From a virus: 64,000 nucleotides of DNA. The position numbers were made by a program, and so were the translations under genes. A model generated the notes under the pieces. The model did not search any database. It had not been told where the DNA came from and worked only from the letters and a program-made list of their open reading frames with translations. The stretch is from UHGV virus genome UHGV-0141727; one strand, 5' to 3'. Below are positions 3,887-31,001 of the stretch, piece by piece; the first letter of the stretch is position 1; every line of letters begins with the position of its first letter.

Positions 3887-4108
3887 ATGCAATCCATTAA
3901 CTTCCGTACCGCGCGCGGCAACCTTTCTGAAGTGCTCAACAATGTTGAAGCCGGGGAAGAGGTTGAAATCACCCGCAGAGGCCGTGAGCCAGCAGTAATT
4001 GTCAACAAGGCTACTTTTGAAGCCTACAAAAAAGCGGCGCTGGATGCCGAATTTGCATCCCTGTTTGACACTCTGGACTCCACCAACAAGGAACTGGTTA
4101 ACCGATAA
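3887..4108 (+). CDS. phd: Phd antitoxin
   Basis: 73-aa product [39 protein letters not shown]... matches P1 Phd as I recall it; stop overlaps the doc start. Confidence 0.95.
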
Positions 4109-4488
4109 TGAGGCATATATCACCGGAAGAACTTATTGCGCTTCATGATGCGAATATAAGCCGCTACGGCGGCCTGCCGGGAATGTCAGATCCGGGTAGG
4201 GCAGAGGCCATTATCGGGAGAGTTCAGGCCAGAGTTGCCTACGAAGAGATCACCGACCTTTTCGAAGTCTCCGCAACCTACCTGGTGGCTACTGCGAGAG
4301 GGCATATATTCAATGATGCCAATAAGCGTACCGCGCTAAACAGTGCGCTGCTATTTCTACGCCGTAACGGCATACAGGTATATGATTCTCCCGTGCTGGT
4401 GGAACTTGCGGTGGGGGCTGCAACTGGTGAAATCCCCGTATCTTCAGTAGCGGAAAAACTACGTGAACTATATGGTTCCAATATTTGA
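4108..4488 (+). CDS. doc: Doc toxin (Fic-fold kinase)
   Basis: 126 aa, [25 protein letters not shown]...; translationally coupled to phd. Confidence 0.95.
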
Positions 4489-4491
4489 AAA

Positions 4492-4517
4492 GAAGCCCGC
4501 TCAACCAGGCGGGCTTC
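4492..4517. terminator. hairpin between convergent doc (+) and the 4524 gene (-)
   Basis: GAAGCCCGC-tcaaccag-GCGGGCTTC; T-rich flank on the minus strand. Confidence 0.55.
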
Positions 4518-4523
4518 CTACTA

Positions 4524-5630
4524 TCACTCAATGATTTTTTCTGCTGTCAGCCAGCTAATTTCTTGCCTGTCTTTCGGCGGTTTTAGCATGTGGGCGTATT
4601 CAGCAACATTCTCCCACGGAATTGTTTTTGCCCACTCAACGATAGCATTGTGATCTGCAGTGAAGAGTGGAATGGTGTGCGATTTCAACCACTCCAATGT
4701 TGTAACGCCATGTTTTTTGGCGTGGTGCTGTGCATGATGCCGGGCTATCACTCGTAATGGCATTATCCATTCACTACCATCAGGCATCGAAAAGCGCATT
4801 GTCTTCGGCATATCTGATTCAAGAACAGCCTCCCTAATACCAGGAAACTCACCAAGAACCATACGACGGTAGTAATCGCTGTTTTTACCACCATATATTT
4901 CTGCAATGTTATCAAGATAACCTTGAGAAATAATGGGGGTATCTTCGGCGTTCAGCTTGATGGCTGTATAAATACCACATGGATTTTCTTCTGATTTAGC
5001 ACGACCATGATGGGAATCGTAAAAGTGTCCATGCTCCTCCTCTGAAGGAGCGGACATTAAAAGTATACGTGAATCGTCACTTACTAACGATGCTCTTAAC
5101 ATGCTGAATAGCCGATCGCCAGCAAGAGCCGCCTCCGTAACAATGATTAAAAGATGTTCAGCATAATATCCACCGAAACCTTCCTCATAATTTCGGTGAT
5201 ATGGCTTAATTTCGCAGCCCCAATATTCCCGGTAACGATGATTGATGCCGTTTCCATCGACTTTAAAATATTCTCTCAGCAATGGGATTCTGTTACTGAC
5301 TCTATCCCAATACGTACTTATGTATTGGATAACTTGCCTGCGACAATTATAGAACTTTGGGGAAACAATAACCGTTTTAGACTCAGGCATCAGGATTGTA
5401 TAAAGAATACTAATTATAGCGATAACCGTCTTTTGGCCTATCCCTTCAGGAGTGGTGACGCTGACTGCTGAACCTTTTTGTTGAATCGCCTCAACAATTA
5501 GCTTTTGCTGGTGGGTTAACTTAACACCCATCAACTCTTCTGCTGCTAATGCCCAGTCATGGCTATATTTGCTTACCAGCTCTCTCCACTCTGGTAATTC
5601 GGTGATGTTTTTAGGCGTCAGCATCAGCAT
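4524..5630 (-). CDS. terminase large-subunit (PacB-like) N-terminal ATPase-domain paralog, Walker motifs degenerate, no nuclease domain
   Basis: Aligns by eye to the N-terminal half of the 10979-12487 product (HQQKLIVEAIQQKG.. vs HQQQQIIQSVQETG..; AEHLLIIVTEAA vs AEHLLLILDEAS; YDSHHGRAKSEENP vs YESHHSRAKAEGNP); Walker A is PEGIGQKT in place of GHGTGKS. Confidence 0.6.
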   Translation of the reverse strand: MLMLTPKNITELPEWRELVSKYSHDWALAAEELMGVKLTHQQKLIVEAIQQKGSAVSVTTPEGIGQKTVIAIISILYTILMPESKTVIVSPKFYNCRRQVIQYISTYWDRVSNRIPLLREYFKVDGNGINHRYREYWGCEIKPYHRNYEEGFGGYYAEHLLIIVTEAALAGDRLFSMLRASLVSDDSRILLMSAPSEEEHGHFYDSHHGRAKSEENPCGIYTAIKLNAEDTPIISQGYLDNIAEIYGGKNSDYYRRMVLGEFPGIREAVLESDMPKTMRFSMPDGSEWIMPLRVIARHHAQHHAKKHGVTTLEWLKSHTIPLFTADHNAIVEWAKTIPWENVAEYAHMLKPPKDRQEISWLTAEKIIE

Positions 5631-6423: not shown

Positions 6424-7086
6424 TCACTCCACAACAAACCAGTCACAGGCCAGCAGGTCGCCAACTGAAGGCACCCACGGAACAACTACACCTTGTGCAT
6501 TTTTTAAGGCGAAATAAGCACCATACGGAACGAAGTCGCCGGGGAAATATCCCTTAATGGCTTCCATTCGTGCCGGGTACTGTCCTTCAGGAACCAGCCA
6601 GCAGAATTGGTTTTCGCCGTTCCACCCGCGTCGAGCAACTTTCTTGCCATCCTTCAGCCACATCAGCGCGTCAGAAAAGTCGGCTGCTTCAAGGTCGATT
6701 TCTTCTTGTAGAGTAGCGATACCGCCAGCAGAAATAGTTACGTCCCTGGCTGTAATGAATGTCACCCCATTGTGACCTTCAATGCTGAGCAATGTCCCAT
6801 TTTCGAAGGCGTCGTTAACCCGGCTATAGCATTTTTCAAATGCTTTCTCTGGCACATAGACCAGATAGCCATTTTCAGCAGTGACGAGATATCCTCCTAT
6901 TTGCGGGCGGAATTTTTCCAAGAACACACCATCAACACGAAGCGTCATTCCTTTTGGCTCAACGACTTCGATACTGCCAAAAATGGGCGCATAATCTTCG
7001 CCGACAATAACAATATCTTTGATTTTCGATGCCCGAATGATGCTGTGGCATTTGTATTTGGGGAACACCTGAAAAGTGCTGACCAT
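6424..7086 (-). CDS. protein with C-terminal DUF2829-like domain (Tad2-like candidate)
   Basis: C-terminus ALMWLKDGKKVARRGWNG...DLLACDWFVVE resembles the DUF2829 hallmark as I recall it; about 130-aa N-terminal extension. Confidence 0.45.
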   Translation of the reverse strand: MVSTFQVFPKYKCHSIIRASKIKDIVIVGEDYAPIFGSIEVVEPKGMTLRVDGVFLEKFRPQIGGYLVTAENGYLVYVPEKAFEKCYSRVNDAFENGTLLSIEGHNGVTFITARDVTISAGGIATLQEEIDLEAADFSDALMWLKDGKKVARRGWNGENQFCWLVPEGQYPARMEAIKGYFPGDFVPYGAYFALKNAQGVVVPWVPSVGDLLACDWFVVE

Positions 7087-7100
7087 AATCCTTCCTCTAC

Positions 7101-7595
7101 TTAAAACTTTTCGTACTGAAGCGGTGTACGCTTGATTTCAACGCGGCCTTCCGATGTGCTACCAAAGCCACCAGCACCTCGCTCTGTTTCATCGAGTTCA
7201 TCAACTTCTACCAGCGATACCGGTTCAACACGCTCAAAAATGCCTTGCATGACCGCCATTCCAGGCTTGAGGCAAACACCTTCACCACCGGGATCTGTAA
7301 TCAGTTTTGCCATGATTTCACCGCGATAATCGGCGTCGATAATTCCTACGCAGTTAGCCAGGCGCGTATGCTTTTTGCAGCCCAATCCGGAACGAGGATA
7401 AAGTTTCAGACACCAGCCAGGAGGGATCGCCATAGCGAGGCCGGTATGCACCCACCAGCTTGAGGAAATAGCGCCGTTGCTATCGATACCAGGCGTTATT
7501 TCAACAGCAACAAAATCCATCGCCGCCGATCCGGCGGTGGCGTAAACGGGGAGTTTTGCCGCCGGATGAAGGCGTTTCACTTTCACGTTAATCAT
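7101..7595 (-). CDS. dut: dUTP diphosphatase (trimeric dUTPase)
   Basis: Motifs GIIDADYRGEI and RGAGGFGSTS. Confidence 0.9.
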   Translation of the reverse strand: MINVKVKRLHPAAKLPVYATAGSAAMDFVAVEITPGIDSNGAISSSWWVHTGLAMAIPPGWCLKLYPRSGLGCKKHTRLANCVGIIDADYRGEIMAKLITDPGGEGVCLKPGMAVMQGIFERVEPVSLVEVDELDETERGAGGFGSTSEGRVEIKRTPLQYEKF

Positions 7596-8476: not shown

Positions 8477-8494
8477 ATTGTTAGAAAATTAATT
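8477..8494. promoter_or_regulatory. operator-like motif attgTTAGAAAATTAAtt
   Basis: One of at least 10 dispersed copies of the TTAGAAAAtTAA family. Confidence 0.45.
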
Positions 8495-9522
8495 CAGGAA
8501 TCCATCAGGCGACTATTTGCACCAACGGATGCCCCGCTACGGCGCAAATATCGCATAAGTGTTTCGGGCTTTTTCCATGTGCCTTCCTGCATGATCTCGA
8601 CCATTGACACCTGTTTCTCAGCCATATCAATTGCCGCACCAACACGCGCACTATGACCTGTCCACGTCCGGTATCTTCCTTTGTTCGGCGTGGCATCTCG
8701 CTTATTCAGCAATCCCCAGGCATCGCTGAATATTTTCTCCATCGCAGGAGCAGTAAGAGGCGTTGTCGTGATTCTGGCTTTATTACTGCGGTGTATTGGC
8801 GGGAATAGCACCGCGTCCGGATGTTCACGAAGTCCGGACACCTCCAGCCAGTCGTTTAGCACGGCGGTAGTGCAACGAGAAAGCACCTTATCAAGTCCGG
8901 CGGCGGTCGTGATGGTCTTCGTGTGTGAAATATGCAGCGTTACAGTGTCACCTGTTTGGTCCAGATCTCCGACACGGATGCGCGAGATTTCTGACATACG
9001 CATCAGGGTATTGTATGCCACGAAGAGAAACGCCCGATTGCGCAGGTCCACCAGCCGCTCGGAACGGGACAGCAATACGTCGAGCAATTTCAGATCATCC
9101 CACCGCAACGGTATAGCCTGGCCTGTACGCTCGCCTTTTTCCGTTGCCGCTTCGCGCCGGATGCGCCGCATGGCCAGAGATACACTTTTATCGTCTGACA
9201 GCGGCGGTAGGCCGCATTGCGAAAGCAGCATGTTAAGCATGGCATAGTGCTTATCAATGGTGGTCGAAGCCAGATCGGCTTCATGCAACTGGAGAAGATA
9301 CTCGCGGGCCATTTCCGGCGTAATCGGGAACCAGGGGCGCTGGCGCGAATTACACCACCGCGCCCAGGAATGAAAGACCAGACGGAGATCACGAAGTGTA
9401 TTTGGGGCATAAGCTCCCTGGTCGTTCATGAACTGCATAAAGTTTTTTGCAGCTTCCTGGTATTCGGTGCCAATATCGCGCAGAAAACCGCCAGAACCGC
9501 CGGAGATAACTAGTTCACCCAT
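8494..9522 (-). CDS. cre: Cre-family tyrosine recombinase
   Basis: Collinear similarity to P1 Cre as recalled (SWARWCNSRQRPWFP, VSLAMRRIRRE, GHSARVGAA). Confidence 0.9.
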   Translation of the reverse strand: MGELVISGGSGGFLRDIGTEYQEAAKNFMQFMNDQGAYAPNTLRDLRLVFHSWARWCNSRQRPWFPITPEMAREYLLQLHEADLASTTIDKHYAMLNMLLSQCGLPPLSDDKSVSLAMRRIRREAATEKGERTGQAIPLRWDDLKLLDVLLSRSERLVDLRNRAFLFVAYNTLMRMSEISRIRVGDLDQTGDTVTLHISHTKTITTAAGLDKVLSRCTTAVLNDWLEVSGLREHPDAVLFPPIHRSNKARITTTPLTAPAMEKIFSDAWGLLNKRDATPNKGRYRTWTGHSARVGAAIDMAEKQVSMVEIMQEGTWKKPETLMRYLRRSGASVGANSRLMDS

Positions 9523-9673
9523 GAAACTATTAAACCTCTATATACAGATGACGCTACGTGAAAAATAGAAAACTGACAGGGTAGTTATAAGTTAATTTTC
9601 AAAATTCAAGCCTTTGATTCGAGGCATGATTTTTCATCCTTGTCAATACTACCTGTTTACTGGAGATTATAGC

Positions 9674-9707
9674 CTAACTTTAAATAATGCCAATTATTTA
9701 AAGTTAG
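9674..9707. other. lox-like recombination site, 13-bp inverted arms around an 8-bp spacer
   Basis: CTAACTTTAAATA-ATGCCAAT-TATTTAAAGTTAG; arms share TAACTT..ATA with loxP; about 150 bp upstream of cre. Confidence 0.55.
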
Positions 9708-12487: not shown

Positions 12488-13851
12488 TAGTCATCCTCCG
12501 GCTGGTCTATCGCAATCTCGTCATCTACAGCATCAAAACCGGTATCCCCCGCGTCATAATCACCGTAGATATCAGCCGTGGCGGAAGGGTCTATATTCAG
12601 GTCTTCATCATTGGCCTCAAATTCACCGGCTTTACGTTCTCCGTTCCGGTCGTAATCCCCCATCCCAAGCCTATCAACGATTTTCGCTACTTCAGCCCGG
12701 CGTTGTGCAAGCCATTGTGGGAGTCCAGCTTGTTGCTCGGCAAACTGCTTCGCCTCTTTATCCAGTTGCTCATCATCAACATCGTTAACGTCAGAAACCG
12801 GAGGCTCCAGAAGTGAGATCGCTTTTGCCGCTCGTGCTGCCAGGATAGCCGGGACACTGACGCCCTGCCGCTCGATATATTCAGCAACGCCTATATCGTC
12901 CAGCTCCTCGCGCTCACGCATACGTATAGCGGCGGCGATAACTCTGGCGGCGCGTGCGTCAGCGCCAATGCGATACTCAATCTCTTTGCCACGCTGCTCG
13001 GCTTGCAGGCGAGTAATCGCCAGTTTTTCTCTGGCCTCAGCCTCTCTGAATGCCTGCTGGCGCGCGCCCTGCGCAAGTTTTTCATCCCCCTGGCGTAGCT
13101 TCTGCTCGGTCTGGTAGATGGCAGCCAACCTACTGATAAAGTCATTCATGTAGTAGGCCGCATCGCTTATTAGGCCGAGAAGACGCTGCCCTGGGTGCAT
13201 TCCCTCTGGCTGTGTATCGCCGAGGGCGTCAATCTCTTCCTGTAGTCGTTCCGCTTCCTGGTCAACGATGGCCTGATACTGAATTGCTCGTTCCTGCGCC
13301 ATCTGTATCGCAAGTCGTAAATGTTCTGTCGCGCCGTTCTTCATCATCTCACGGGCGACGTTGGTGGCAGGCAAAGTGGCGCTTTGAGCTGATGAGTCAG
13401 GGATCATTTGCAATGATCCCATGTTTCGTTGGGCTTTTTCGCTGCTTTTAGGGATCATTTCCCCCATTTCATCACAAAATGATCCCCTTACATCCTTGTG
13501 TATCTTGTTGTTATTACTTGACTTTTCTTTGTGATCCGCATTTTGTTTTTGCGGCATGGCGCGGAATCGTCCACCAGCTAACGATTTGTCAGTTTTTGTA
13601 AATTCTGTGCTTTTATCAGCCTTTTTTTGCTCTTTTTTTGGGCTTGCGGCGCTGCTTTTCGCGCGCTGTTTTGTGCTTTTCCCGGCAGCCTTAGCTTTCG
13701 CTTTAACCTCATTTTTTTTCATATTGAGATGCTTTCTGGCGGTGTTAAAGCTGAGGTCATGCTGCTCGCAATATTCCTTTATGGTGATCCCGGTTTCTTC
13801 TCTTAACTCCAGGAACTTAGCTCGATGCGCTTCCCAATTAATTAACGTCAT
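12487..13851 (-). CDS. pacA: terminase small subunit / pac-recognition protein (P1 PacA-type)
   Basis: N-terminal HTH, lysine-rich linker; coupled to pacB; GATC-rich pac-like repeats inside the gene. Confidence 0.6.
   Translation of the reverse strand: MTLINWEAHRAKFLELREETGITIKEYCEQHDLSFNTARKHLNMKKNEVKAKAKAAGKSTKQRAKSSAASPKKEQKKADKSTEFTKTDKSLAGGRFRAMPQKQNADHKEKSSNNNKIHKDVRGSFCDEMGEMIPKSSEKAQRNMGSLQMIPDSSAQSATLPATNVAREMMKNGATEHLRLAIQMAQERAIQYQAIVDQEAERLQEEIDALGDTQPEGMHPGQRLLGLISDAAYYMNDFISRLAAIYQTEQKLRQGDEKLAQGARQQAFREAEAREKLAITRLQAEQRGKEIEYRIGADARAARVIAAAIRMREREELDDIGVAEYIERQGVSVPAILAARAAKAISLLEPPVSDVNDVDDEQLDKEAKQFAEQQAGLPQWLAQRRAEVAKIVDRLGMGDYDRNGERKAGEFEANDEDLNIDPSATADIYGDYDAGDTGFDAVDDEIAIDQPEDD
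13400..13538. other. candidate pac site: five GATC-containing ATGATCC/GGATCAT elements within about 140 bp inside pacA
   Basis: GATC at 13403, 13415, 13454, 13481, 13534 in a repeated flank context. Confidence 0.45.
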
Positions 13852-14240
13852 AGGGAAGCCTCACGTTTTTTCACGGCGGCGTTCCATAGCTGGTTAGTCA
13901 TCGCCACCAACTGACGCTGCTCCTTTCGTAATTGAGCTTCTATCTTTCGGTTGGTGTTTTTCACCAACAGCCGACCGAATTCAGGAGTGCGCCCGCGCAC
14001 CTTGAACTGGTATCCATTCAGGCCATGTAGCCAATATTTCCGGGGGTATACGCGGTCGTCTATTTCGCAAATGGCACGACTGGAACGAACAAAAAAACGT
14101 ATGATGTTATTTACGTTTACGCGCGACACATGAAGGTGAGGATATTGTGCTTTTGCACGGCTGGTGATTTCGGTGACCGTCAGATAGCAGTCAGCCCTGA
14201 TCATGATATCCGCTATTTCGGCGCTACTGATTTGCTCCAT
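13848..14240 (-). CDS. hypothetical protein, possibly late promoter activator (Lpa-like) by position
   Basis: 130 aa directly upstream of pacA with a 4-nt overlap; operator-like site in its leader. Confidence 0.3.
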   Translation of the reverse strand: MEQISSAEIADIMIRADCYLTVTEITSRAKAQYPHLHVSRVNVNNIIRFFVRSSRAICEIDDRVYPRKYWLHGLNGYQFKVRGRTPEFGRLLVKNTNRKIEAQLRKEQRQLVAMTNQLWNAAVKKREASL

Positions 14241-14347: not shown

Positions 14348-14731
14348 CTACCAGCGGGATAAACGAACAACATGCTTAACTTTTGCCTCCCACTTCCCTT
14401 TATGTTTGTTGATCACCGCCTGCGCCATCTTCAGACTGGCTTCAAAATCGGCTTTTCGACCACTATTGCCCACCAGCAACGCTCCGTCTATTTCGGGTAA
14501 GCATAAGTAATCCTGCTCGACGGTAAGCGGCATTGATGATGTAACCTGGCAGGCTTTCCATCTGAAGCGTATGCGCACACTCCTGACTGACATCACGACA
14601 TAACCTGATATTGTGCTCTTGTGTCCGGCGTCTGTGCGTGTAGCCTTGCATGATGTTATCTTGCAGGTGATGATGTCCCAACCAATGTGCATTGCATCCT
14701 CAATGCGTAATTTAGTAGCCTCGTACATCAA
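14348..14731 (-). CDS. hypothetical protein (127 aa)
   Basis: 4-nt overlap with the upstream gene. Confidence 0.35.
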   Translation of the reverse strand: MMYEATKLRIEDAMHIGWDIITCKITSCKATRTDAGHKSTISGYVVMSVRSVRIRFRWKACQVTSSMPLTVEQDYLCLPEIDGALLVGNSGRKADFEASLKMAQAVINKHKGKWEAKVKHVVRLSRW

Positions 14732-15303
14732 AAAACCTCCCAGTCAGTAGCGATAATATCGACACCAGTTGCAAACCAGTCTGTCTGCGCCTGTAAATCC
14801 CCATTCATCATTACCAGGCGAGGCATAACCATCACATCACAACCTTCAACAATATCGAATGCCTCTTCCGGCAGGAATTCGACGAGCTTTTCTTTGCTGC
14901 CAACACTGCCACGGAGCATCGATATATAGCTCCCTTTAGGCCATGATGTTCGCCGGGCATCAAGCCCCTTCATCATCCAGTAAAAGGCCGATGAGAACGG
15001 GATGTTCTTTTTGGCGATGAGCACGTTATTCGCTTCTGTGTACTTCAGGAACTTAACTAACCTTACCATCGACTCGGATAACGCAATGTACGGCTCATGA
15101 TTGATTGCTGACACGCTTACGCCGTGCAGTCCAACACTTACCACTGTCATATCACCGTTCTGTGCGGTTTCGATGTTGACGCCTTTACGAACTAACGCTG
15201 CATAAAGCTCCTCGCGCTTTTGCGTCCAGCATTCTCGTCGCCCTATAAAGTCACTCAAAACGAGATCATCTTCTGAATACGCGTTATCGTTCGCCGTTAA
15301 CAT
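14728..15303 (-). CDS. protein with C-terminal DUF2829-like domain (paralog of the 6424-7086 C-terminus)
   Basis: AFYWMMKGLDARRTSWPKG...DIIATDWEVF parallels ALMWLKDGKKVARRGWNG...DLLACDWFVVE. Confidence 0.4.
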   Translation of the reverse strand: MLTANDNAYSEDDLVLSDFIGRRECWTQKREELYAALVRKGVNIETAQNGDMTVVSVGLHGVSVSAINHEPYIALSESMVRLVKFLKYTEANNVLIAKKNIPFSSAFYWMMKGLDARRTSWPKGSYISMLRGSVGSKEKLVEFLPEEAFDIVEGCDVMVMPRLVMMNGDLQAQTDWFATGVDIIATDWEVF

Positions 15304-15756
15304 AACGTCTCCTTTTTTACACGCGCGACTATCCCCCGGCTGAACCGGTAGTGACGTCGTAACTTCGTATTAATTAAGGGTTACAGCCTGAGCGGCTATA
15401 TGATGAATTGAAAGGAGTTGTGGCGGTGGTGCCTCCACCTGCCAGGTTAGCCACGCCCGGCGACGACACTTATCAGAACGTAGTGAATGAAAATGGCTTC
15501 GTCACGAGCGCATAGCCGCAATTACCACAACGGAGAAGGCGCTCGTATTAATTAAACACCTTTTCCTGTTGTACGCCGTGCTATTCCGGCTGTCACACCG
15601 AATCGCCAGGATGGTGAGTCCCTGAGTCCGCTATCCTACCAACGGTGACTTGCACATTCCGGCTACCTGATGTGCCCATGCAGTGTTAGTAAGGCACCTA
15701 ACAGCTACACCAGACCGCTAACGACGCATGTGCCATACGCCGTGTTACAACCAAAT

Positions 15757-15832
15757 GTGGTGGCCCCTACCGGACTTGAACCGGTGACCGTGCGATTATG
15801 AGTCGCCCGCTCTAACCACTGAGCTAAAGGGC
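15757..15832 (-). tRNA. tRNA with CAU anticodon, ileX-like (tRNA-Ile2 lysidine type; tRNA-Met by anticodon alone)
   Basis: GGCCCTTTAGCTCAGTGGTTAGAGCGGGCGACTCATAATCGC...GGTTCAAGTCC...CCA; close to E. coli ileX as recalled. Confidence 0.8.
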
Positions 15833-16261
15833 CAGATTACTGTTAATTACGCTTACGCTTTTTGCCAGAACCGCGTAAGGCTTTTGCCGCTTGCTCTACC
15901 CCGTATGCAACCACCAGCAGAAACAATAATGTCCACTCCGGGTTTTTATCGGCAAACGCCCAAAAATCCATCACTTGCAGCCACCTTTTAAGACAAACAC
16001 CATTGCTGTTAGGTTGCGGTGCCGGGTGCCTCCCGGTGACGTTAACCAGTTAACAATTAACGCCGGATCACTTATGGATTCTCGTTACGCCAGTAAAAAG
16101 ACCACCTTTACTGTTTTAACTGTACCGCGTGCGCTTAGCCGCATTCACCGCAATGGTAAGAGCACTTGGCTGGCTGGGCGGCGATGACGCCTGTACGCAT
16201 TTGGTGATCCGGTTCTGCTTCCGGCATTCGCTTAATTAGCCAAATACTCTTAACGTTGCGA

Positions 16262-16348
16262 TGGCGGAGAGTAATGGAATCGAACCATCATCGCTTGCGC
16301 GACGGGACGGATTTCAAGACCGCTTGAGCACCATGCTCCCTACTCTCC
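16262..16348 (-). tRNA. class II tRNA, probably tRNA-Ser(UGA)
   Basis: 87 nt, acceptor GGAGAGT/ACTCTCC, loop CUUGAAA, long variable arm, T-loop GGTTCGATTCC, encoded CCA; anticodon stem is imperfect. Confidence 0.55.
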
Positions 16349-16500
16349 AGTGATTGTGGTGGTCGGTGCTGATCTCCGACTGCGCCTCTTTTTTTCATAG
16401 CCCATAAGGCCGGTCAGTGCGCTTGATGACTGAGGCATCGATATTTACTACGCCGCGTCGTTGCCATAGGGCGGACTTGCGCGCCAGCAACGCGCATTCA

Positions 16501-16588
16501 CCACAACGGTAAGGGTACTTCGTAGGGATTCGAACCCTCTGCCAAGCACGGCGATCTCCGACGTCGCAAAATACCCTTACCTGTTGTG
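16501..16588. other. tRNA-like element: T-arm-like palindrome between 16-17-bp inverted repeats
   Basis: CACAACGGTAAGGGTA ... AGGGATTCGAACCCT ... TACCCTTACCTGTTGTG; no canonical cloverleaf found. Confidence 0.3.
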
Positions 16589-16589
16589 T

Positions 16590-16665
16590 TGGTGCCGGTT
16601 AACGGACTCGAACCGCTGACATCCTGCTTACAAGGCAGGCGCTCTACCAACTGAGCTAAACCGGC
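16590..16665 (-). tRNA. tRNA-Thr(UGU)
   Basis: GCCGGTTTAGCTCAGTTGGTAGAGCGCCTGCCTTGTAAGCAGG...GGTTCGAGTCC...ACCA. Confidence 0.85.
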
Positions 16666-16669
16666 AATT

Positions 16670-16756
16670 TGGTGGGGAGTGATGGAGTCGAACCATCCGA
16701 GTCGCAATGACAGTAGATTTACAGTCTACCCCGCTACCCCTACGGACTAACTCCCC
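16670..16756 (-). tRNA. tRNA-Tyr(GUA), class II
   Basis: GGGGAGT acceptor, loop CTGTAAA, long variable arm, GGTTCGACTCC, CCA. Confidence 0.8.
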
Positions 16757-16761
16757 TAAAT

Positions 16762-16838
16762 TGGCGATGGTGGGTGGATTCGAACCACCGACCGACAGCT
16801 TAGAAGGCTGCTGCTCTATCCTACTGAGCTACACCATC
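16762..16838 (-). tRNA. tRNA-Arg(UCU)
   Basis: GATGGTGTAGCTCAGTAGGATAGAGCAGCAGCCTTCTAAGCTGT...GGTTCGAATCC...GCCA. Confidence 0.8.
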
Positions 16839-30453: not shown

Positions 30454-31001
30454 CAGTGAGCCTCCGCAATGCCGGGATTGGTAATATTGCGATACCAGGG
30501 ATTAGTGTTTGGTTGTGGGGAAGTAGAGAAACGACCAGTGAGAACGCCATACTGATCAGGGATCAGAGAACGGGCTTCTTTTTCAGTTGCGGCAATTGCG
30601 AAGTGATCACAATGTTTTTGCAGGGAGTGGAAACGCCAGATGAATTCTGGACGTGAGCAAGGATTGGCATTAACCATAGTTACGGCCTCATGTACAGGTT
30701 TAACAACCTGCAACCCGCTGCTAAACGGGTGGCAGGACGTGACGGGGTTAGCAGACTGGCGTACATGAAACCAGCAGGCCGAAGCCTCCCCATCACGCCC
30801 CACCATAATTTGGGCGTAACGTGGTTTACGGACACAAAAATACCGCAATATCGGATATCTGCGGTTGTCCGCATGTACATTCAGGCTGCTAAACCCGGTC
30901 GCAGAATTTGCTACGACGGCATGAATATAAGCCTGAACATTAGAAAGATCAACAGAATTTTTATCAGATGCTGTTTTTTTGTGACGATGTAAATCATACA
31001 T
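30453..31001 (-). CDS. hypothetical protein (182 aa), first gene of the immI-like operon
   Basis: Cys/His-rich ORF; operator-like motifs directly upstream. Confidence 0.4.
   Translation of the reverse strand: MYDLHRHKKTASDKNSVDLSNVQAYIHAVVANSATGFSSLNVHADNRRYPILRYFCVRKPRYAQIMVGRDGEASACWFHVRQSANPVTSCHPFSSGLQVVKPVHEAVTMVNANPCSRPEFIWRFHSLQKHCDHFAIAATEKEARSLIPDQYGVLTGRFSTSPQPNTNPWYRNITNPGIAEAH

What the first reader, a model, noticed from the sequence alone, without database searches (positions are those of the whole stretch)
6424..7086. DUF2829-like (Tad2-like) C-terminal domain, with a paralog at 14728-15303
The C-terminus of the 220-aa product (ALMWLKDGKKVARRGWNG...DLLACDWFVVE) and that of the 191-aa product at 14728-15303 (AFYWMMKGLDARRTSWPKG...DIIATDWEVF) share a pattern I associate with DUF2829. 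Some members of that family (Tad2) sequester Thoeris signalling nucleotides. Both proteins carry extra N-terminal domains of 100-130 aa.
Basis: inference. Interest (0 to 1): 0.55.

Follow-up and report, generated by a model that had tools for sequence, protein, structure and literature searches.

The report
Two Tad2-like anti-Thoeris sponge genes
A D6-like phage-plasmid of Escherichia carries two genes whose C-terminal halves belong to the known Tad2 (DUF2829) family of phage proteins that soak up bacterial immune signalling nucleotides; the family call is correct and largely already known, and only the extra N-terminal domains and the second, divergent copy are new details.

Summary
ORF A (6424-7086, minus strand, 220 aa) and ORF B (14728-15303, minus strand, 191 aa) both match Pfam PF11195 (Tad2-like) above the curated cut-off. 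Both predicted C-terminal folds match solved Tad2 structures best. The window is a D6-like (P1-family) phage-plasmid.

ORF A's Tad2 domain is 64% identical to Tad2_68, which experimentally inhibits type I and II Thoeris, and about 45% identical to ModTad2, the His-ADPR sponge. It keeps the pocket residues W155, N156, W204, S207 and D210. Its N-terminus is an OB fold like the phage L Dec protein. This module is usually a stand-alone phage protein and is also found fused to Acb2/Tad1-hairpin and crAss001_48 modules.

ORF B is a divergent Tad2 fold (GWNG replaced by SWPK) behind a dsRBD-like domain. Its position upstream of lpa-pacAB is conserved. Its nearest tested relatives were mostly inactive, so its ligand is unknown.

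RefSeq already labels ORF A as DUF2829, and a 2025 survey reports Tad2 in 93% of D6-like phage-plasmids.

Verdict: a new member of a known kind, of moderate to low interest. No binding or infection data exist for either protein.

The parts
6424..7086 (-). ORF A, 220 aa, a two-domain Tad2-like protein. ATG at 7086 lies behind a GAGGAAGG ribosome-binding site; the stop is at 6424-6426.
6811..7086 (-). ORF A aa 1-92: an OB-fold module like the phage L Dec protein, with the motif F-x-P-x-I-GGYLV...GYLVYVPEKAFE..Y.
   Evidence: - phmmer to 6E3C E=7.5e-4.
- Family profile to 6E3C E=9.5e-5.
- Foldseek to 6E3C E=2.4e-3, probability 1.0, 88 columns.
- pLDDT 72-91.
6697..6810 (-). ORF A aa 93-130: a beta-rich linker modelled with low confidence.
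   Evidence: pLDDT is below 50. The linker is retained in D6 orf114 even though the OB core is deleted there.
6427..6696 (-). ORF A aa 131-220: the Tad2 (PF11195) sponge domain. Pocket residues are W155, N156, W204, S207 and D210.
14728..15303 (-). ORF B, 191 aa, a divergent two-domain Tad2-like protein. ATG at 15303 lies behind an AAGGAG ribosome-binding site.
15004..15303 (-). ORF B aa 1-100: N-terminal domain with an alpha-beta-beta-beta-alpha (dsRBD-like) fold.
14731..15003 (-). ORF B aa 101-191: Tad2-fold domain. W121, W176 and D182 are kept; the pocket Asn is replaced by P122.
7101..7595 (-). dUTPase gene immediately upstream of ORF A on the same strand, with a 14-nt gap.
8494..9522 (-). 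Cre-like tyrosine recombinase, the first gene of the minus-strand block that contains ORF A.
9666..9693 (-). Sigma-70-like promoter match (TTGGCA-16-TATAAT, 11 of 12) upstream of the cre-like gene. It is a candidate promoter of the block cre / 114 aa / 162 aa / dut / ORF A / isaA-like / 368 aa.
   Evidence: consensus match only
4495..4510 (-). Terminator-like hairpin just after the last gene of that block (the 368-aa ORF at 4524-5630).
   Evidence: consensus match only
13848..14240 (-). lpa (late promoter activator, PF25716), downstream of ORF B on the same strand. The B-lpa-pacA-pacB order is conserved.
14348..14731 (-). 127-aa ORF of unknown function between ORF B and lpa. Its start overlaps the ORF B stop by 4 nt.
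15365..15377 (-). TTAATTAATACGA motif 62 nt upstream of the ORF B start. A second copy lies at 15543-15555. The proximal copy is conserved in phage D6.

Best explanation
The window is a D6-like (P1-family) phage-plasmid that encodes two Tad2-family proteins.

ORF A most likely acts as a stoichiometric nucleotide sponge. Its C-terminal domain would assemble into the Tad2 homotetramer and bury ADP-ribose-derived Thoeris signals in the pocket lined by W155/N156 of one protomer and W204/S207/D210 of another. The likeliest ligands are His-ADPR of type II Thoeris, and probably also 3'cADPR of type I. The Thoeris effector would then never be activated. The domain architecture is shown here; tetramer formation, the ligand and inhibition are inferred.

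The N-terminal Dec-like OB module is a separable accessory. It is lost in phage D6, replaced in other alleles, and recurrently partnered with other sponge modules elsewhere. Its role is unknown.

ORF B is a second, independently acquired Tad2-fold protein, co-located with the early lpa-pacAB genes. It is probably also a small-molecule sponge, but for a ligand that cannot be named from current data.
For: Family and fold:
- Pfam PF11195 hits above cut-off for both proteins.
- PDB sequence hits to ModTad2, HgmTad2 and SPO1 Tad2.

Nearest tested relatives of ORF A:
- The ORF A C-domain is 64% identical (56/87) to Tad2_68. Table S2 of Hadary et al. (10.1101/2025.08.24.671296) scores Tad2_68 positive against type II Thoeris (y/y/y). 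It also scores positive against type I after individual re-cloning.
- It is 44-50% identical to ModTad2, which was crystallised with His-ADPR.

Pocket residues:
- The SPO1 Tad2 contacts W25/N26/W73/S76/D79 and the HgmTad2 contacts W21/N22/S90/D93 map to identical residues in ORF A.
- In ORF B they map to W121, W176 and D182.

N-terminal extensions are compatible with activity: the 151-aa HgmTad2 control, with about 47 extra residues, was active.

Persistence of the Tad2 module:
- D6 orf114 and the dut fusion P0053 lost the OB core but kept the Tad2 domain at over 95% identity.
- The N and C modules reassort independently among phage-plasmid alleles.

Genomic context:
- ORF A lies in an accessory block with dut and cre, not among morphogenesis genes.
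- ORF B lies directly upstream of lpa-pacA-pacB, and so does a homolog only 46% identical.

An independent survey found Tad2 in 93% of D6-like and 56% of P1-like phage-plasmids.
Against: - No binding, oligomerisation or infection data exist for either protein.
- ORF A is a two-domain protein of an architecture that Hadary et al. deliberately excluded from their Tad2 test set (proteins also matching PDB 6E3C or PF21825). No tested protein has this layout.
- Specificity within the family is not predictable from identity alone. ModTad2 does not inhibit type I Thoeris, whereas Tad2_68 and Tad2_71 do.
- ORF B lacks the pocket Asn (SWPK in place of GWNG).
- The closest tested relatives of ORF B share only 26-33% identity. 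Tad2_69 and Tad2_80 inhibited none of seven systems, and Tad2_72 inhibited only type I Thoeris.
- I did not check how often Escherichia hosts carry Thoeris.
- The promoter and terminator calls are consensus matches only.
Confidence: 0.68

Rival explanations
1. ORF A is a virion protein. The Dec-like OB domain would bind the capsid as phage L Dec does, the beta-rich linker would form a spike, and the DUF2829 domain would sit at the tip with a role other than intracellular signal sequestration.
For: - The N-terminal domain matches only the phage L decoration protein, in sequence and in fold.
- One homolog (P0023) carries a tail-fibre repeat, PF03406, at its N-terminus.
- Hadary et al. removed 6E3C-containing proteins from their sponge set.
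- Two of three stand-alone OB genes examined lie near terminase or portal genes.
Against: - The gene lies between dut and an isaA-like gene in the cre-proximal accessory block, far from the morphogenesis genes.
- The viable phage D6 has an in-frame deletion of the OB core.
- The OB module is exchanged for unrelated N-terminal modules while the Tad2 domain stays at 80-99% identity.
- The OB module is also fused to Acb2/Tad1-hairpin domains, which are intracellular sponges.
- The Dec similarity is modest: E about 1e-4 over 39 residues, TM 0.48.
Confidence: 0.07
2. ORF B has the Tad2 fold but is not an immune-signal sponge. It could be a regulator or adaptor tied to the lpa-pac early operon, working through its dsRBD-like domain, or a degenerate copy.
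For: - The pocket Asn is lost, and the pocket Asp is not conserved in four of the distant relatives (P0135, P0138, P0139, P0142).
- The nearest tested relatives, Tad2_69 and Tad2_80, were inactive against seven systems.
- The family is very narrow: 18 relatives among 1.84 billion representatives.
- Synteny with lpa is strict.
Against: - The core Tad2 signature (G113, R118, W121, W176, D187, W188) is invariant across the family down to 20% identity, which argues for purifying selection on the Tad2 architecture.
- Tad2_72, also of the 'W-P' type, inhibits type I Thoeris.
- About a quarter of tested sponges had no target among seven systems, and the authors read this as untested ligands.
- Placement in an early operon suits an anti-defence role.
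Confidence: 0.3
3. ORF A targets mainly other signals, either instead of or in addition to Thoeris signals. Candidates are Pycsar cUMP/cCMP or CBASS cyclic dinucleotides, bound in the second pocket formed by the beta2-beta3 insertion, as in ModTad2 and HgmTad2.
For: - ModTad2 binds cUMP/cCMP in a second pocket and inhibits an E. coli Pycsar.
- The ORF A insertion has the same length class as those of ModTad2 and Tad2_68.
- Phage-plasmid alleles differ mainly by a cassette in this insertion.
Against: - Tad2_68, the closest tested homolog, did not inhibit either CBASS or the Bacillus Pycsar, and was negative for the E. coli Pycsar after re-cloning.
- The residues of the ModTad2 cUMP pocket are not available in any text I could read, so they could not be compared.
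Confidence: 0.2
4. ORF B is a type I toxin-antitoxin toxin, following the PGAP name 'MW1434 family type I TA system toxin'. Alternatively, the proteins are anti-CRISPRs, following the AcrIIA7 label.
For: - RefSeq names ORF B homologs this way on NZ_CP056699.1 and NZ_CP069647.1.
- HgmTad2 was first published as AcrIIA7.
Against: - The MW1434 label goes back to a purely bioinformatic list of S. aureus toxin-antitoxin candidates (PMC6266405).
- The current NCBIfam release gives no hit.
- ORF B is a soluble 191-aa two-domain protein, unlike short membrane-active type I toxins.
- Li et al. could not reproduce Cas9 inhibition by HgmTad2.
Confidence: 0.02

Closest known systems
Tad2_68 (IMG/VR UViG_3300014659_000001, 87 aa), tested in Hadary et al. 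2025
   Same: 64% identical to ORF A aa 134-220, with the same insertion length and the same GWNG...PW(V/T)PS(V/I)GD pocket motif. It experimentally inhibits type II and type I Thoeris.
   Different: It is a single-domain 87-aa protein. ORF A has 130 extra N-terminal residues (OB module plus linker) and is untested.
ModTad2 / MoTad2 (Myroides odoratus prophage; PDB 8V3E, 9EIB)
   Same: It is the best sequence and structure match in the PDB for both ORF A and ORF B. It is a tetrameric sponge for His-ADPR and has a second pocket for cUMP/cCMP.
   Different: 44-50% identity to ORF A and about 23% to ORF B. It is single-domain and does not inhibit type I Thoeris.
SPO1 Tad2 (gp34.65; PDB 8SME-8SMG) and HgmTad2/AcrIIA7 (PDB 8KBI-8KBM, 9KZR)
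   Same: Same fold, and the same pocket residues Trp/Asn...Trp/Ser/Asp. Full-length HgmTad2 also has an N-terminal extension and is active.
   Different: 33-41% identity to ORF A. Their beta2-beta3 insertions differ. The HgmTad2 extension is helical, not an OB fold.
Phage L decoration protein Dec (PDB 6E3C)
   Same: ORF A aa 1-92 shares the OB fold and the motif F-K/R-P-x-(I/V)-GGYL...G-x-L-x-Y...AFE..Y.
   Different: By my recollection Dec is a capsid-binding trimer with a C-terminal beta-helix. ORF A carries a Tad2 domain instead, lies outside the structural genes, and its OB core is dispensable in D6.
Phage D6 orf114 (YP_009914791, 146 aa) and orf6 (YP_009914683, 191 aa)
   Same: Orthologous loci in the type phage. 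The orf114 Tad2 domain is nearly identical to that of ORF A, and orf6 is the ORF B ortholog next to lpa.
   Different: orf114 lacks the OB core through an in-frame deletion. orf6 is annotated only as hypothetical.
Tad2_69, Tad2_72 and Tad2_80 ('W-P' type DUF2829 proteins tested by Hadary et al.)
   Same: They share with ORF B the R-x-x-W-P motif in place of GWNG, and are its closest tested relatives at 26-33% identity.
   Different: They are single-domain proteins. Tad2_69 and Tad2_80 were inactive against all seven systems, and Tad2_72 was active only against type I Thoeris.

Membership tests
Tad2 / DUF2829 (PF11195) | Significant match to the Pfam PF11195 model above the gathering score | tested here: met
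   ORF A scores 80.2 bits and ORF B 40.4 bits, against a cut-off of 25.
Tad2 / DUF2829 (PF11195) | [quoted passage not shown] | tested here: met
   - ORF A: Foldseek top 24 hits are all Tad2 chains, TM (target) 0.61-0.87.
Tad2 / DUF2829 (PF11195) | Conserved ligand-pocket residues (SPO1 W25, N26, W73, S76, D79; HgmTad2 W21, N22, S90, D93) | tested here: met
   ORF A has W155, N156, W204, S207 and D210, all identical. ORF B meets this only in part: W121, W176 and D182 are kept, N is replaced by P122 and S by T179.
Tad2 / DUF2829 (PF11195) | Homotetramer (two interlocked V-shaped dimers) that creates the inter-protomer pockets | not testable with these tools
   Only monomer prediction was available. 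N-terminal extensions are tolerated in HgmTad2 (151 aa, active).
Tad2 / DUF2829 (PF11195) | Sequesters a TIR-derived signal (3'cADPR, His-ADPR or N7-cADPR) and thereby inhibits Thoeris | not testable with these tools
   Inferred for ORF A from 64% identity to the tested Tad2_68. There is no basis for naming a ligand for ORF B.
Tad2 / DUF2829 (PF11195) | Small single-domain protein of about 70-110 aa, as in the characterised members | tested here: not met
   ORF A is 220 aa and ORF B is 191 aa, each with a folded N-terminal domain. This is typical of the characterised members rather than strictly defining: HgmTad2 is 151 aa and Tad2_73 is 158 aa.
Phage L Dec-type decoration protein | Dec-like OB fold at the N-terminus | tested here: met
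   Foldseek to 6E3C E=2.4e-3, probability 1.0, 88 columns. Profile hmmsearch E=9.5e-5.
Phage L Dec-type decoration protein | C-terminal trimeric beta-helix spike, capsid binding, and a gene placed among head genes | tested here: not met
   The C-terminus is a Tad2 domain. The linker is modelled at pLDDT below 50. The gene lies in the dut/cre accessory block. Capsid binding itself cannot be tested here.
Type I toxin-antitoxin toxin (PGAP 'MW1434 family') | Match to a curated toxin model; a short hydrophobic toxic peptide with an antisense RNA | tested here: not met
   The current NCBIfam release gives no hit. ORF B is a 191-aa globular two-domain protein. Rfam finds no antisense RNA at the locus.
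dsRBD (double-stranded RNA-binding domain), for the ORF B N-terminal domain | alpha-beta-beta-beta-alpha fold together with the RNA-binding motifs (GPxH loop, KKxAK at the start of helix 2) | tested here: inconclusive

The most novel reading that the evidence does not exclude
This reading has two parts.

(1) The Dec-like OB ('GGY') module would be a previously unrecognised anti-defence module or adaptor in its own right. It is usually a stand-alone phage protein of 80-110 aa. It is also found fused, in exchangeable cassettes, to three different modules: Tad2 and the Acb2/Tad1 hairpin, which are known sponge domains, and crAss001_48, whose function is unknown. On this reading ORF A is a bifunctional fusion.

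(2) ORF B, with a dsRBD-like domain plus a 'W-P' type Tad2 fold conserved next to lpa, would define a Tad2 subfamily that captures an immune signal not yet discovered.
Probability: 0.2. Interest if true: 0.65.

Novelty: new member of a known kind. Interest (0 to 1): 0.33.

Why it matters
If ORF A and ORF B work as proposed, D6-like phage-plasmids would constitutively or early on disarm signalling-based immunity in their hosts. These elements are widespread in E. coli, Shigella and Salmonella, including clinical lineages. Thoeris is the likely target, and a second unknown pathway is possible. This would help explain their stable carriage and cross-species spread.

ORF B and the OB module could also serve as baits for fishing out unknown immune signalling molecules, as ModTad2 did for His-ADPR.

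As an annotation matter, the result corrects a misleading RefSeq name ('MW1434 family type I TA system toxin') and the 'hypothetical' label on D6 orf6.

Tried and rejected
- **P1 C1 operator:** a search for the consensus ATTGCTCTAATAAATTT with up to 3 mismatches gave 0 hits in the window. C1-controlled expression could not be assessed.
- **NCBIfam:** no hit for either protein. The toxin-antitoxin toxin name was rejected.
- **ORF B single sequence against the PDB:** only E=0.54. A family profile was needed.
- **Sabonis et al. Nature paper (DOI 10.1038/s41586-025-08930-2):** not held. The ModTad2 residues that contact His-ADPR or cUMP could therefore not be compared.
- **P0132:** this 4941-aa hit to ORF B aa 55-123 is a plant-like repeat protein of xylanase-inhibitor domains. 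I treated it as spurious.
- **Pfam on the N-terminal OB module:** nothing for 19 members.
- **Pfam on neighbouring ORFs (368, 268, 162, 114 and 127 aa):** nothing.
- **Literature search for 'crAss001_48':** nothing found.
- **Neighbourhoods of three stand-alone OB genes:** only one lay near a Tad2 gene, which is too few to conclude anything.
- **Anti-CRISPR reading:** rejected on published negative data.
- **Multimer modelling and ligand docking:** not possible with these tools.

Full report
**What is there**

Both ORFs exist as described on the minus strand: ORF A at 6424-7086 (220 aa) and ORF B at 14728-15303 (191 aa). Each starts at an ATG preceded by a good Shine-Dalgarno sequence.

The window is a D6-like member of the P1 family of phage-plasmids.
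- The ORF A region is 99% identical to an Escherichia marmotae plasmid and 99.6% identical to an E. coli plasmid.
- It is about 80-84% identical to phage D6.
- It shows the typical cre / c1 / pacAB / lpa / tRNA layout and a C4 antisense RNA.

**Is the DUF2829 call right?**

Yes, for both proteins.

Pfam PF11195 'Tad2-like':

| ORF | Residues | E-value | Bits | Cut-off |
|---|---|---|---|---|
| A | 136-219 | 1.7e-22 | 80.2 | 25 |
| B | 103-190 | 4.4e-10 | 40.4 | 25 |

Against PDB sequences, ORF A aa 132-220 hits ModTad2 (9EIB/8V3E) at E=5e-20. It then hits HgmTad2/AcrIIA7, SPO1 Tad2 and SptTad2.

The AlphaFold2 model of ORF A has mean pLDDT 77.6. The two domains are confident and the linker at 93-130 is below 50. 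The 24 best Foldseek hits in the PDB are all Tad2 chains, and the next hit is the phage L decoration protein Dec, matching the N-terminal domain.

The two proteins are only 19-28% identical in this domain. They are co-resident family members from different subclades, not recent paralogs. No third copy is present in the window.

**Where ORF A sits in the family**

Table S2 of Hadary et al. 2025 lists the tested Tad2 proteins with their sequences.
- ORF A's C-domain is 64% identical (56/87) to Tad2_68 and 44% identical to ModTad2 in one alignment.
- Tad2_68 is scored positive against type II Thoeris. After individual re-cloning it is also positive against type I. It is negative against type IV Thoeris, two CBASS systems and two Pycsar systems.
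- ModTad2 binds His-ADPR in the canonical inter-protomer pocket and cUMP/cCMP in a second pocket.

The residues that contact gcADPR in SPO1 Tad2 are W25, N26, W73, S76 and D79. In HgmTad2 they are W21, N22, S90 and D93. They align with identical residues W155, N156, W204, S207 and D210 in ORF A.

The most likely mechanism is therefore the family mechanism. A homotetramer would bury ADPR-derived Thoeris signals and keep the effector off. His-ADPR, and probably 3'cADPR, are the best guesses for the ligand. Only the sequence and the predicted fold are shown here; the tetramer, the ligand and the inhibition are inferred.

**The N-terminal domain of ORF A**

Residues 1-92 form an OB fold whose only known relative is phage L Dec.

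| Test | Result |
|---|---|
| phmmer | E=7.5e-4 |
| Family profile | E=9.5e-5 |
| Foldseek | probability 1.0 over 88 columns |

Hadary et al. state that they removed proteins carrying PDB 6E3C or PF21825 in addition to a sponge domain. So this architecture is known to exist but has not been tested.

A profile search with the module alone found more than 100 stand-alone proteins of 80-110 aa. It also found fusions to PF21825 (crAss001_48-related) and to PF24729 (Acb2/Tad1 hairpin domain, another sponge family).

Klebsiella phages SopranoGao and vB_KpnP_ZX1 encode proteins that are 95% identical over the first 111 residues. One then continues into a Tad2 domain and the other into a crAss001_48 domain.

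Conversely, among phage-plasmid alleles the Tad2 domain stays at 80-99% identity while the N-terminal module is exchanged or diverges:
- P0013: N-terminal module 53%, C-domain 99%.
- P0012: N-terminal module 100%, C-domain 69%.
- Other alleles carry PGDW-type modules, and one carries a tail-fibre repeat.

Phage D6 itself has an in-frame deletion of the OB core. Another allele fuses dUTPase directly to the linker plus Tad2 (P0053).

The OB module is therefore separable and dispensable for phage viability, and it recurrently accompanies sponge modules. What it does is unknown.

The decoration-protein reading is unlikely because:
- the gene lies in the dut/cre accessory block;
- the OB core is deleted in D6;
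- the module is also fused to Acb2/Tad1-hairpin domains, which are intracellular sponges.

It is not excluded.

**Allelic variation**

C-domain alleles differ mainly by a cassette in the beta2-beta3 insertion. Two examples are P0036 (nine residues shorter, with GWNG changed to EWKG) and P0027 (eight residues longer). In HgmTad2 and ModTad2 this insertion forms the second pocket. I infer that ligand range is diversifying in this population.

**ORF B**

The family is narrow. There are 9 word-index hits and 18 relatives among 1.84 billion representatives. It occurs in 127 plasmid records, nearly all non-mobilizable Escherichia, Salmonella or Shigella plasmids about 80-95 kb long among the listed examples.

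Across the family, G113, R118, W121, W176, D187 and W188 are invariant. The pocket Asp (D182) is kept in all but four of the distant relatives (P0135, P0138, P0139 and P0142). The Asn is replaced by Pro.

The closest tested proteins share this W-P motif:

| Protein | Identity to ORF B | Result in Hadary et al. |
|---|---|---|
| Tad2_69 | 33% | inactive against all seven systems |
| Tad2_72 | 28% | active only against type I Thoeris |
| Tad2_80 | 26% | inactive against all seven systems |

ORF B lies directly upstream of lpa-pacA-pacB in this window, in D6, and in an element whose homolog is only 46% identical. From my knowledge of P1, lpa is an early, repressor-controlled gene. If the same holds here, ORF B would be expressed early, which suits an anti-defence role. 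This was not tested.

I think ORF B is probably a sponge for an unidentified ligand, at about 60-65%. The remainder goes mainly to a non-sponge role.

**Context of ORF A**

ORF A is the fifth of seven tightly packed minus-strand genes: cre-like, 114 aa, 162 aa, dut, ORF A, isaA-like and 368 aa. An 11/12 sigma-70-like match lies upstream of the cre-like gene, and a terminator-like hairpin follows the last gene. These are consensus matches only.

**Novelty**

RefSeq already names ORF A and its homologs 'DUF2829 domain-containing protein'. A 2025 survey reports 'Tad2 AcrIIA7 (anti-Thoeris)' in 93% of D6-like and 56% of P1-like phage-plasmids.

ORF B is annotated as hypothetical, or under the legacy name 'MW1434 family type I TA system toxin'. 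That name traces to a bioinformatic list and is unsupported by the current NCBIfam release.

The finding is a correct recognition of known-family members. The added value is:
- placement of ORF A in the Tad2_68/ModTad2 clade;
- recognition of the second, divergent copy;
- the modular OB / Tad2 / Acb2-hairpin / crAss001_48 association.

Interest is moderate to low.

Noticed in passing
window 6811-7086 (-); proteins P0148, P0169, P0093: The Dec-like OB module of ORF A is mostly a stand-alone 80-110 aa phage protein. It is also fused to crAss001_48 (PF21825) and to Acb2/Tad1 hairpin (PF24729) domains. Klebsiella phages SopranoGao and vB_KpnP_ZX1 share 95% identity over aa 1-111 and then carry different C-terminal modules.
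   Followed up: partly
L001 3771-4211 (phage D6 orf114); protein P0053: Phage D6 has an in-frame deletion of the OB core: it keeps the first 20 aa, the linker and the Tad2 domain. Another allele fuses dUTPase in frame to the linker plus Tad2. The OB module has been lost at least twice while Tad2 was kept.
   Followed up: yes
window 6427-6696 (-) compared with P0036 and P0027: C-domain alleles among phage-plasmids differ by a replaced cassette in the beta2-beta3 insertion, the site of the second pocket in HgmTad2 and ModTad2. Allele P0036 also changes GWNG to EWKG.
   Followed up: partly
window 15365-15377 and 15543-15555 (-): An exact 13-nt repeat, TTAATTAATACGA, occurs twice in the roughly 450-nt leader between tRNA-Met and ORF B. 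The proximal copy, 62 nt before the ATG, is conserved in phage D6. It may be a regulatory site.
   Followed up: partly
window 14728-15303 (-); NZ_CP056699.1, NZ_CP069647.1: RefSeq names ORF B homologs 'MW1434 family type I TA system toxin'. This legacy label comes from a bioinformatic toxin-antitoxin survey of S. aureus, and the current NCBIfam release does not support it.
   Followed up: yes
window 30725-30810 and 30878-30930 (-): Rfam finds the C4 antisense RNA and its a1/b1 target, the P1-type ImmI immunity region.
   Followed up: no
window 15758-16838 (-): A cluster of five tRNA genes: Met(cat), Ser(tga), Thr(tgt), Tyr(gta) and Arg(tct). This set differs from the one annotated in D6 (Ser, Thr, Asn).
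   Followed up: no
phage RCS47 FO818745.1 15522-15950: The RCS47 homolog of ORF A is annotated as 'part 1' next to an inverted repeat, so the gene is split by an insertion element.
   Followed up: no
window 3887-4488 (+), by collinearity with L002: A phd/doc toxin-antitoxin pair lies just beyond the end of the ORF A gene block, on the opposite strand. The coordinates are inferred from the offset to the E. marmotae plasmid and were not checked directly.
   Followed up: no
L005 2319-3258: In one metagenomic phage contig, a stand-alone 91-aa Tad2-like gene and a stand-alone OB-module gene lie two genes apart in the same run of small ORFs. Two other stand-alone OB genes showed no such neighbour.
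   Followed up: partly
protein P0132: A 4941-aa plant-like repeat protein (xylanase-inhibitor domains) scores E=2.7e-24 against ORF B aa 55-123 in 16 stretches. It is probably a spurious or compositional match.
   Followed up: partly
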